Shown here piece by piece: positions 8,201 through 19,707 of a stretch of DNA of 64,000 bases. The stretch comes from Chrysomallon squamiferum. Taxonomy: Eukaryota > Animalia > Mollusca. The position numbers and the translations under genes are program-made. Location of the stretch: the NCBI GenBank assembly GCA_012295275.1, contig CM022677.1:20398001-20462000 (forward strand), in the 5' to 3' direction. How positions within the stretch are numbered: the first letter of the stretch is position 1; the number at the start of each line of letters is the position of its first letter. The notes beneath the pieces were generated by a model. The model saw only the letters and a program-made list of their open reading frames with translations, ran no database searches and was not told where the DNA came from.

Positions 8201-11200
8201 ACACACACACACACACACACACACACACACGGATATTTATTCATATAAAGATATAAACACAGACACATATAAACATACAATTTAAAAAAGAAAATAAAAC
8301 ATTAATGTTATATCTTGCCAGTTGTTTATTCATTTATTTATTTCATTTTATTTTCTTTTTGTATTGATTAACATTTTGTAACAAATGTTTTTATTTTTAT
8401 ATTACAGCAGGCGCAGAAATCTGGCCACCTCTGCCGAACACACGTATTACTTTACTAGCAGTAACAACATGAAAATGATATAAATCTAATATTAAATTAA
8501 TTACAGAACATCCAAAAGTTATTTTAGTATTAATAACAGAACATATGAAAGTTATTATTTTCATATTAATAACAGAACATATAAAAGTTGTTATTTTAAT
8601 ATTAATAACAGAATATATAAAATTATTATTTTAATATTAATAATAGAATATATAAAAGTTATTATTTTAATATTAATAACAGGACATATACAAATTATTA
8701 TTTTAATATTAATAATAGAATATATAAAAGTTATTATTTTAATATTAATAATAGGACATATACAAATTATTATTTTAATATTAATAATAGAATATATAAA
8801 AGTTATTATTTTAATATTAATAATATATATATATATAGCTATGTATCAGTCAGTCAGCCTATCTGTTTGTCTGTTTTTTGTATCTGTCCATCTTTTATTT
8901 TTATTTTCTAGTGAAAAGACGAATATTGTGAAGAATATATACATTGAGTAAGTATTTGCACTGTTCTTCTTCTTAAACTGTTCTATCACTAGCATAGCTC
9001 CTCTTGTCACTCTTCAAACTATTTAGTAGCAGGGCATCTACTTAGTAGACTGCATGTGTCATATAGAATTAGACTATATGTGTCAACACAGAAGATATAC
9101 CATTAACTAGATAGGATAATATGTTAGGATAATTTAGATTATTAAAGATAATTAATCCTCTGTTTTATACTGTATACATGTCTGGTGAGAATGTTGATGA
9201 ATTTGTTTTTTCGTAAACTGTAGAATTTAAGCAGAAACAAGAATACATGACAGATAGATAATAACAAAATTTAAATGCACATTTATTCAGTATTTTAATC
9301 ACTTGAAGAATATATTTTTGCTATTAAACAAATCATTGTATGAAAATATATTTGGATGATCATACATATTTATCTTGTTAACCTTTTAATAATACAGGAA
9401 CATTATTATAATCATTACAGTGTGGTAATTTCTCTTATAATTTCTTTTTTAGTGAGAGGAAAGGAGGAAAGAAACATGAAAAGTATTTTTCTCTCTCTGT
9501 CTCTCACACACACACACACACACTCATAATCACTCCTTTTCTCTTTTTGTTGTATATTCTGTTTCATTTGATCTTTTTGTCTGAAGTATGTATATATCTA
9601 TATATATATATATATATATATATATATATATATTTGTTTTCTTTCCTATGACAATAAAAGCAAAACATCTAATAATAATAATAAAAATTATTATTATTAT
9701 TATTTTTATTATTATTATCTTTAACTTTTATTATTATAAAAGACAGTTTTTATTATTATTATTATTATTATTATTATATTTGTTAGCACTATTTTTATCA
9801 TTTATGCACTGTTTCACTGGGAGTCCATATGTCTTTCTTAAGAAAAGTAATAGATTTCTTTTCTTCCTTCTTTGTTTCTTTTCTTTTTGTCTCTCTCCAT
9901 ATATATATACATATATGTAAAATTGTTCTAAGTATATTTATTTTAATTATTATTCACTCTATATTTGAATCAGACATGGAAAAGGTTCTCATAACAAAGG
10001 ATCTAAATCTAGGTAGTATTATTCTTTTGTTTTTTACATTTTTCTCTGTCCTCCCTCCCACCACCCCTATCTCATCTATTGCTCATCTTTCTAATCTCTC
10101 TCTCTCTCTCTCTCTCTCTCTCTCTCTCTCTCTCTCTCTCTCTCTCTCTCTTTCAGTACCTCCTCACTCTCTCTTTCTCTCTGTGCCTCTTTGTATCTCA
10201 CTCTCTGTGTGTCCATCTGTTTCTCCCTTTCTTTCTCTTTCTTTCTTTCTTTCTTTCTTTCTCTCACACCAGGTTTTGAAGTTAAGGGGACTGAGAACAT
10301 TAGTCCCTTGCTGCCCCCATCTAGCTACACTACTGACACACCCACACATATAGATGTGTGTGCAGATATGTGTGTATGCGTGTATGTATGTATATATGTA
10401 AATCTGTATGAGTATATATGTCTATATATATATATATATGTATATATGTATATATATGTATATATGTATATATATATGTATGTGTGTATATATTTATGTG
10501 TGTGGGTACATATGTATTTATTAATCTGTTTATATCTATATACACGTGTGTGTGTGTTTTATTTATCATAGGTGTTCTGTAGTATTTATGTGTATTGAAC
10601 TCATTGTTACCTCAAAAGTAAAACAGATCTTAACTAAAATTAATGTATTTGTTATTCTTTTAATGAAAGCCATTTTCACTGAGGTCTTTTTTTACTCTAT
10701 CTCTTTGTGTTTCTGTGTGTGACTAACAGGCATGTTAAAAGCATGAATTTTTTTTTTTTTTTTGTCTCTGTATTTTTTATATTTATTATTATTTTTTAAT
10801 CCATTGACATTTATTTTGATTATTTTTATTGTCATTATCATTCCACAAAGCTAAATTTTTATTTCTTCTAATTTTTATTTATTTATTTATTTTTGTTCCC
10901 AGTTATACAAAATCCAGGTAAATTTTTTGCTTGCTAAAAATTATTATTTTGTCCTTATACTTTATTATCATTATCATATATTGCCTCTCTCTCTCTCTCT
11001 CTCTGCTAAATATATAATAATAATTTTTTAATCCATTCACATTATTTTTGATTATTTTTACTGTCATTATCATAGCACTCTGCTAAATTTATGGTTCTTC
11101 TAATTTTTAATATATTTATTTATTTTTTTATTTTTTTTTATTTTTACTTTTCTTTTTTGTTCCCAGTTATCAAAAATCCAGGTAAATATTTAAAAGTTAT

Positions 11201-19707: not shown

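What the first reader, a model, noticed from the sequence alone, without database searches (positions are those of the whole stretch)
10780..18900. An apparent intronic satellite hides 23 tandem 15-nt micro-exons that build a receptor's cytoplasmic tail five residues at a time
Seen: each repeat unit has a T-rich tract, ttyccAG, exactly 15 nt (one copy 16) and a GTA donor, usually with a branch-point-like ttctaat upstream, while the rest of the unit varies from about 220 to 600 bp. The 15-mers are diverse, yet only one frame is stop-free in all copies (phase 0 hits TAA in the TAAAG/TAAAA copies; phase 1 hits TAA in the TCATCTAAAA copies). That frame is phase 2, exactly what upstream exon 9974-10012 delivers and downstream exon 18967 accepts. 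Translation: SYTKS SYQKS SHTKS SHGKS SHGKS SHGTA SHLKA SKAKS SHLKS (SKGKS) SKGKS SHLKS SKVIT RKTIT SKATA SKGTA SKTAA SKTAA SHLKS SKTAS SKTAS SKTAS SKAAA, continuing the composition of the preceding KHGKGSHNKGSKS. Known: schistosome micro-exon genes use strings of symmetric micro-exons to diversify mostly secreted proteins. Inference: here a duplication-born array acts on an intracellular basic Ser/Thr-rich tail, and any subset can be skipped in frame, allowing combinatorial tuning of length, charge and phosphosites. Repeat masking and ordinary gene finders would miss it.
Basis: partly seen in the sequence, partly recalled or inferred. Interest (0 to 1): 0.92.

Follow-up and report, generated by a model that had tools for sequence, protein, structure and literature searches.

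The report
Spliced 15-base micro-exon array in satellite
What looks like an 8-kb intronic satellite, in what is likely a snail genome, is a run of 22 in-frame 15-base exons; RNA shows both ends of the run spliced into the message, where it adds a basic, serine-rich stretch to the likely inner tail of a membrane protein, but free mix-and-match skipping is not shown.

Summary
Observation confirmed and backed by RNA. Between 10903 and 18777 lie 22 exons of 15 nt, one 16-nt copy and one dead copy, each in a 220-595-nt unit with acceptor, donor and CT microsatellite. RNA contigs join exon 9974-10012 to micro-exons 1 and 2 (one run), and micro-exon 23, preceded by like copies, to exon 18967 and the last exon (two runs, one study). 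No direct skip of the array was seen. Contig lengths fit a message with at least 19 micro-exons, but 16 where the window has 20: another allele or partial skipping, unresolved. Copies differ mostly at first and second codon positions (suggestive, P 0.03-0.06). The host is a single-pass protein with EGF-like repeats; its closest named relatives are from the snail Gigantopelta aegis and also have basic serine-rich tails, as does a paralog in the window that encodes its repeat in one exon. Precedents: avian troponin T P exons, schistosome SmPoMuc exon-2 repeats. Not a schistosome-type MEG. The scan noted similar arrays of 3-nt exons on other DNA, without RNA support in the lines shown. New variant of a known kind; combinatorial splicing and tail function unproven.

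The parts
338..5288 (+). Seven symmetric phase-1 exons of 93-96 nt, each one six-cysteine EGF-like repeat (338-433, 1234-1329, 2017-2109, 3180/3200-3295 which looks frameshifted, 3915-4007, 4605-4700, 5196-5288). The gene starts before the window.
   Evidence: Splice sites and translations; Pfam EGF_2 at its cutoff (22.1 bits) for 1 of 6 tested, sub-cutoff for 1, none for 4. Not tested against RNA.
5692..6995 (+). Four short symmetric stalk exons: 5692-5715 (24 nt), 6004-6030 (27), 6436-6468 (33), 6966-6995 (30)
   Evidence: Canonical sites and open frame; predicted only
7905..7980 (+). Transmembrane exon; switches the chain from phase 1 to phase 2; ends in Trp/Cys residues followed by arginines in the next exon
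   Evidence: Translation; predicted
8411..10012 (+). Four short phase-2 tail exons: 8411-8443 (33 nt), 8912-8947 (36), 9453-9482 (30), 9974-10012 (39)
   Evidence: Joined in this order in RNA contig X2 record 1; 30 letters of the first are seen as a loose end, 3 of them differing from the window
10903..18777 (+). Micro-exon array. 15-nt exons start at 10903, 11167, 11401, 11696, 12035, 12368, 12639, 12998, 13310, 14274, 14609, 15040, 15634, 16092, 16647, 16873, 17336, 17771, 18078, 18300, 18520, 18763; each sits in a unit of T-rich tract, yCCAG, exon, GTA donor and usually a CT microsatellite. 16 distinct 15-mers; 110 residues with 34 Ser, 23 Lys, 16 Ala, 13 Thr, 8 His and no Asp or Glu.
13779..13794 (+). 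16-nt copy (copy 10), a tandem duplicate of copy 11 with one more A; frameshifting if included
   Evidence: absent from all 235 subsets that fit the RNA contig length.
17135..17139 (+). Dead copy: acceptor kept, most of the exon and the donor deleted
   Evidence: read-through has stops
18967..19026 (+). 60-nt phase-2 exon after the array; upstream AG of a tandem (NAGNAG) acceptor is used
   Evidence: RNA contigs X1 record 1 and X2 record 6
19581..19760 (+). Last coding exon (stop 19705-19707) and start of the 3' UTR
   Evidence: Same two contigs join 19026 to it; X3 covers 19600-19760

Best explanation
The array is a run of 22 in-frame 15-nt exons, spliced into the mRNA at both ends of the run and likely through most of it, that likely grew by repeated tandem duplication of one exon-plus-intron unit and adds about 95-110 basic, Ser/Thr-rich residues to the likely cytoplasmic tail of a single-pass protein with EGF-like repeats. 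Shown: the exons, their phase, splicing of copies 1-2 and of the last copies. Inferred: each symmetric unit can be gained or lost without breaking the frame, so unequal crossing-over or slippage at the CT microsatellites changes copy number between alleles; most copies are included together in a dominant message; amino-acid changes are tolerated or favoured while splice sites and length are kept. Function, inferred and least sure (about 0.35): the tail is a disordered polybasic segment that binds acidic inner-leaflet lipids or acidic partners and is released by Ser/Thr phosphorylation, with copy number setting its strength.
For: RNA: X2 contig joins four tail exons, then continues with copies 1 and 2 letter for letter; X1 and X2 contigs join like copies to copy 23, exon 18967 and the last exon. 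The X2 3' contig starts exactly where a 31-mer graph breaks if three identical copies (20-22) lie in a row, and would run on if one were missing. Its 5' overhang of 253 nt is 16x15+13, the predicted break offset; 235 of 63,004 subsets fit, all with 16 copies, none with the 16-nt copy. Run X4 holds 18753-19025 with its intron. Duplication: neighbouring units are near-identical and cluster on a tree of flanks; half units and a dead copy exist. No indel in 22 exons while flanks are full of them (97 of 210 upstream columns well occupied). Allele difference: the X2 message differs at 3 of 30 letters in exon 8411-8443 and 2 of 58 in exon 18967-19026. Tail chemistry recurs: among 110 fetched proteins the five most Ser/Lys/Arg/His-rich post-membrane tails are all G. 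aegis relatives, and the paralog in the window has six RKGS motifs in one exon. Polybasic phospho-switch precedent: PMC7752083 (passages).
Against: RNA comes from one study, contigs only; the 5' joint rests on one contig; X1 and X3 gave nothing there and X3 did not cover the array end. Copies 3-19 were not seen letter by letter. The deficit of four copies fits skipping as well as an allele. The array has no [RK][RK]x[ST] motif (7 [RK]xx[ST], 8 [ST]x[RK]), and its second half is Ala/Thr-rich. No protein, topology or binding data. The nonsynonymous excess is borderline and invariant third-position A could reflect splicing constraints.
Confidence: 0.6

Rival explanations
1. Regulated combinatorial splicing: cells skip chosen subsets of the micro-exons and make a repertoire of tails, as schistosome MEGs do for secreted proteins.
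For: All copies are symmetric; the RNA contig has 16 copies where the window has 20; 5' contig depth 18 against 34 for the 3' contig leaves room for a second form; RefSeq lists three isoforms of the G. aegis relative that carry one, the other or both copies of a duplicated 18-residue tail segment (annotation models, not checked); branch-point-like motifs differ among units.
Against: One contig runs unbroken for 253 nt into the array, and no alternative joint or second loose end was listed at 10012 or 18967. The RNA is from another allele, so a copy-number difference explains the deficit without skipping.
Confidence: 0.25
2. Tolerated runaway duplication: the exons are spliced, but the tail is a passive disordered spacer and its length and sequence drift; only frame and splice sites are selected.
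For: Dead, half and 16-nt copies persist; relatives have tails of about 66-100 residues with no such array visible in the protein; on the exon tree, first and second positions are not clearly faster than flanks (P 0.10).
Against: No acidic residue in 110 positions and no stop or indel in 22 copies; first and second codon positions change 22-30 times against 2-3 at three third positions; a basic serine-rich tail recurs in relatives and in the paralog by another route.
Confidence: 0.25
3. Plain intronic satellite whose AG..GT cassettes are never used.
For: A minisatellite elsewhere in the window mimics such cassettes; the open-frame test alone is modest.
Against: RNA contigs of two samples contain adjacent 15-mers without introns, joined to the flanking exons.
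Confidence: 0.01

Closest known systems
P exons (Tx segment) of avian fast skeletal troponin T (PMC11016001, PMC7581897; passages read)
   Same: Tandem exons that each add one pentapeptide to a variable region of an intracellular protein; histidine in the repeat.
   Different: Seven exons with a near-constant acidic AHH[A/E]E repeat, spliced in after hatching, proposed to bind metals. Here 22 copies, 16 distinct, basic with no acidic residue, on the tail of a membrane protein; regulation unknown. No sequence relation is claimed or was tested.
SmPoMuc exon-2 repeats of Schistosoma mansoni (PMC2576457; passages read)
   Same: A small exon with its flanking introns repeated head to tail up to about 20 times, units separated by purine/pyrimidine microsatellites, copy number varying between individuals.
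   Different: 27-nt exon, 1-kb units over 93% identical, two or three repeat types, glycosylated mucin repeats, transcripts with more repeats than the gene. Here 15 nt, 220-595-nt divergent units, diverse pentapeptides, likely cytoplasmic, and the one contig has fewer copies than the window.
Schistosome micro-exon genes, MEGs (PMC4350168; passages read)
   Same: Strings of very small symmetric exons; raised nonsynonymous change.
   Different: MEGs are mostly made of micro-exons, are secreted or surface-exposed, have shown isoform pools and appear restricted to flatworms. Here exons of 39 nt or less are at most about 39% of the coding sequence in the window, the array is likely intracellular, and an isoform pool is not shown.
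Gigantopelta aegis LOC121373296 (XP_041355773-5) and neighbours XP_041355772, XP_041355339
   Same: Same six-cysteine repeat, one transmembrane segment, basic Ser/His/Lys tail; X1 matches the window's membrane-plus-tail model at E 4.6e-7 in a set of 110 proteins (composition may inflate it); a duplicated tail segment differs among annotated isoforms.
   Different: Only two or three repeats, other N-terminal domains, tails of about 100 residues or less; their exon structure was not examined; uncharacterised.

Membership tests
Schistosome micro-exon genes (MEG) | Very small symmetric exons in series | tested here: met
   22 exons of 15 nt, phase 2 on both sides, ends of the run spliced
Schistosome micro-exon genes (MEG) | Most of the coding region is in such exons | tested here: not met
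   Exons of 39 nt or less make about 582 of 1508 coding nt in the window by my sum of the exon lengths; the gene's start is outside the window, so 39% is an upper bound unless that part is also micro-exonic
Schistosome micro-exon genes (MEG) | Signal peptide; product secreted or surface-anchored | tested here: inconclusive
   5' end is outside the window; one transmembrane exon is present, but the array follows it and is likely inside the cell
Schistosome micro-exon genes (MEG) | Alternative splicing yields a pool of variants | tested here: inconclusive
   One dominant contig, four copies short of the window; contigs hide rare forms
Schistosome micro-exon genes (MEG) | Flatworm gene | tested here: not met
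SmPoMuc-type genomic exon repeat | Exon plus flanking introns in tandem, separated by microsatellites | tested here: met
SmPoMuc-type genomic exon repeat | Units homogenised to over 93% identity and about equal length | tested here: not met
   Spacing 220-594 nt; about 1.7 changes per flank column on the tree; only recent neighbours are near-identical
SmPoMuc-type genomic exon repeat | Transcripts with more repeats than the gene (trans-splicing or exon repetition) | tested here: inconclusive
   The one informative contig fits fewer copies; contigs cannot count identical neighbours beyond the break
Avian troponin T P exons | Tandem exons of one pentapeptide each | tested here: met
Avian troponin T P exons | His/Glu-rich acidic metal-binding repeat | tested here: not met
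   8 His, no Asp or Glu, net +24 in 110 residues
Avian troponin T P exons | Developmental or tissue-specific splice-in | not testable with these tools
   Only contigs of three RNA runs with coded labels
EGF-like (Pfam EGF_2) repeat protein | Match to the Pfam model at its cutoff | tested here: inconclusive
   1 of 6 exons reaches 22.1 bits (the cutoff), 1 is below it, 4 give no match
Structured RNA families (Rfam) | Match at gathering score in 10000-19000 | tested here: not met
   0 matches

The most novel reading that the evidence does not exclude
A gastropod surface protein diversifies its inside rather than its outside: 22 diverging micro-exons under selection for amino-acid change are spliced in regulated combinations, giving a MEG- or Dscam-like repertoire of signalling tails with graded charge and phosphosites, while a neighbouring paralog reached a similar tail by repeats inside one exon.
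Probability: 0.2. Interest if true: 0.8.

Novelty: new variant of a known kind. Interest (0 to 1): 0.55.

Why it matters
It shows with RNA that a stretch any repeat masker would call satellite is coding, and that a spliceosome can string together a long run (at least 19 by inference) of 15-nt exons in an animal outside the flatworms. It is a compact system for three questions: how micro-exons are born by unit duplication, how long runs of them are spliced, and whether exon-level repeats give a tail something that repeats inside one exon (the paralog next door) do not, namely adjustable length. It also suggests that low-complexity tails in repeat-rich mollusc genomes are under-annotated.

Tried and rejected
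No whole genome is held, so the gene's 5' end and other copies could not be examined. Search with the 41-residue last exon found no relative among 7 candidates (weak evidence). Search with the paralog's LRR exon gave 4 generic LRR proteins. Rfam: nothing. X1 and X3 gave no useful cover of 8850-10090, and X3 none of the array end; this is no evidence of absence. Short matches at 9250-9283, 18721-18754 and 19543-19579 in the RNA runs are AT-rich chance hits from other transcripts and were ignored. Acceptor 18970 was my first guess and is rejected: both contigs use 18967. The open-frame argument was weighed and found too weak to stand alone. A pairwise pN/pS of 4.0 counts shared changes many times and was replaced by tree counts. 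Origin of the unit from the 39-nt exon is only suggestive: copies 4 and 5 match its first 10 plus last 5 letters at 13 of 15, but by eye the acceptor flanks are unlike. No fold was predicted. Literature searches for a description of this locus or of such arrays in gastropods (listings only) found none; the library lacks most subscription journals, and supplements were not read.

Full report
Observation. The region 10780-18900 is a head-to-tail array of divergent units. A scan for yCCAG finds 24 acceptors; 22 have a GT donor exactly 15 nt downstream, one at 16 nt (13779) and one (17135) has none. Spacing is 220-594 nt, leaving introns of 205-579 nt; every exon ends in AG; 19 of 23 donors read GTAAAT; 12 of 23 have CTAAT within 70 nt upstream. 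Only phase 2 is open in all 15-nt copies, and it is the phase of the flanking exons. The cassette count is 21 under a strict pattern against 0.38 in 200 shuffles. Two controls temper this: a minisatellite at 43990-45420 gives 24 of the 29 12-nt cassettes found outside the array with gaps too short for introns, and phase 2 stays open in 17.6% of column shuffles and 2.5% of neutral simulations. Sequence alone makes the idea likely, not certain.

RNA evidence. A search with 18940-20400 returned four runs: three RNA runs of one study and one run of unrecorded kind from another. On 18650-19760, one contig each from X1 (depth 4) and X2 (depth 34) consists of a loose start made of copies of the 15-mer found at 18078/18300/18520, then copy 23, then exon 18967-19026, then the exon at 19581; X3 covers only the last exon; X4 holds 18753-19025 with its intron and shows no such joint among the rows listed (25 loose ends and 68 pieces were not shown). 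On 8850-10090, one X2 contig (depth 18) joins 8912-8947, 9453-9482 and 9974-10012, is preceded by exon 8411-8443, and continues for 253 nt, of which the 30 shown are copies 1 and 2 exactly; X1 and X3 gave nothing useful. So both ends of the array are spliced in, and the direct skip that would refute the finding was not seen.

What contig lengths add (inference). Assuming 31-mer graphs, a message with all copies would break at the three identical copies 20-22; the predicted 3' piece starts at the very letter where the X2 contig starts, and with only two such copies there would be no break. The 5' piece should end 13 nt into copy 21, and 253 = 16x15+13. Of 63,004 subsets tried (copies 1, 2 and 21-23 fixed, up to 7 of copies 3-20 dropped), 235 give 253 nt; all hold 16 copies, all include 19 and 20, none includes the 16-nt copy, none includes 4, 5 and 6 together. 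That message therefore likely has at least 19 micro-exons, four fewer than the window. The case where copy 10 is really 15 nt was not simulated, and a contig can also end for lack of cover. The same RNA differs from the window at 3 of 30 letters in exon 8411-8443 (two amino-acid changes by my reading) and 2 of 58 in exon 18967-19026, so it comes from another allele; fewer genomic copies and skipping cannot be told apart.

Evolution of the array. Neighbouring units are often near-identical and group together on a tree of flanks; a dead copy and partial units remain. No 15-nt exon has an indel whereas flanks have many. There are 16 distinct 15-mers; third positions of codons 3 and 4 are invariant while first and second positions vary. 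Parsimony gives 22-30 changes in eight first/second-position columns, 2-3 in three third-position columns, and 1.7-2.0 per flank column. The synonymous deficit has P 0.06 (exon tree) or 0.03 (flank tree); excess over flanks has P 0.10 or 6e-5. Conversion between units and splicing constraints on A-rich positions could produce the same picture, so this is suggestive.

The host gene. Within the window it has seven EGF-like exons, four short stalk exons, one transmembrane exon and a tail of 217 residues with 22 copies, 110 of them from the array. The array part has 34 Ser, 23 Lys, 13 Thr, 8 His, no acidic residue. A profile of 25 repeat exons found five proteins in one search, two of them named G. 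aegis proteins, and 99 in another; of ten top or tail-bearing hits looked up, three clusters are G. aegis and the rest are unnamed, hypothetical or transcriptome entries. Among 110 fetched proteins the five most Ser/Lys/Arg/His-rich tails after a hydrophobic segment all belong to G. aegis. Three annotated isoforms of one of them differ by carrying one, the other or both copies of a duplicated 18-residue tail segment. The paralog at 36515-62612 (LRR, thrombospondin-like and EGF-like exons) ends in one exon of about 106 residues with 29 Ser, 32 Lys/Arg and six RKGS motifs. The window is thus likely gastropod DNA, and a basic serine-rich tail is a family trait reached by different routes. Type-I topology, and so a cytoplasmic array, is inferred from the cysteine-rich repeats before the membrane segment, basic residues after it, and signal-like N-termini in relatives (by eye).

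Mechanism. I commit to growth by tandem duplication of a symmetric exon-intron unit, inclusion of most copies in a dominant message, and allelic copy-number variation (0.6 overall). For function the best guess (0.35) is a polybasic, phosphorylation-released membrane-binding tail of the kind reviewed in PMC7752083 (passages); the array lacks [RK][RK]x[ST] motifs and nothing was tested. Regulated combinatorial skipping (0.25) and tolerated drift (0.25) stay open and are not exclusive of the duplication history.

Comparison. The avian troponin T P exons are seven tandem exons giving seven pentapeptides (PMC11016001, PMC7581897; passages). MEGs (PMC4350168; passages) share small symmetric exons and fast protein evolution, but this gene fails two defining features. 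Five literature searches (listings only) showed no description of this locus or of such an array in a gastropod. The scan's notes hold three arrays of 3-nt exons in other genomes (unchecked) and nothing for this genome.

Verdict. Real, expressed, and a new variant of a known architecture: more copies and more diverse than the troponin case, basic and likely intracellular unlike the schistosome cases. Interest 0.55; 0.8 if regulated combinatorial use is shown (probability 0.2).

Noticed in passing
window 3180-3295: Fourth EGF-like exon: the two halves of the cysteine pattern lie in different frames across a G run; a second acceptor at 3200 gives an open 96-nt exon that lacks the first cysteines. 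Assembly slip, alternative acceptor or broken exon.
   Followed up: partly
window 36515-62612: Paralog with a signal-like start, a 309-residue LRR exon (Pfam LRR_8), a thrombospondin-like exon, 19 intact EGF-like exons, a membrane exon near 60112-60189, two short tail exons and a last exon with six RKGS motifs; no micro-exon array.
   Followed up: partly
window about 53848-53935: One EGF-like exon of that paralog looks disrupted and runs into a 42-nt tandem repeat.
   Followed up: no
window about 23420-30980: A third gene in the same orientation with several thrombospondin-type-1-like exons, a membrane exon near 29994-30060 and a short basic tail: the window is a cluster of three single-pass proteins.
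   Followed up: no
window 43990-45420: 37-39-nt minisatellite whose units contain AG, 12 nt, GT; spacing is too short for introns. Useful negative control for micro-exon calls.
   Followed up: yes
window 8411-8443, 18967-19026, 19714: RNA of run X2 differs from the window at 3 of 30, 2 of 58 and 1 letter; two of the first three change amino acids, hinting at a polymorphic gene.
   Followed up: partly
window 18964-18969: Tandem NAGNAG acceptor; both RNA contigs use the upstream AG, adding one serine.
   Followed up: yes
P0012, P0007, P0011 (G. aegis LOC121373296): Annotated isoforms differ only by a duplicated 18-residue tail segment, present as both copies or either one; several family members lie on one 40.8-Mb contig.
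   Followed up: partly
window 9974-10012 and copies at 11696, 12035: These two micro-exons match the first 10 plus last 5 letters of the 39-nt exon at 13 of 15, a possible trace of the founding exon.
   Followed up: partly
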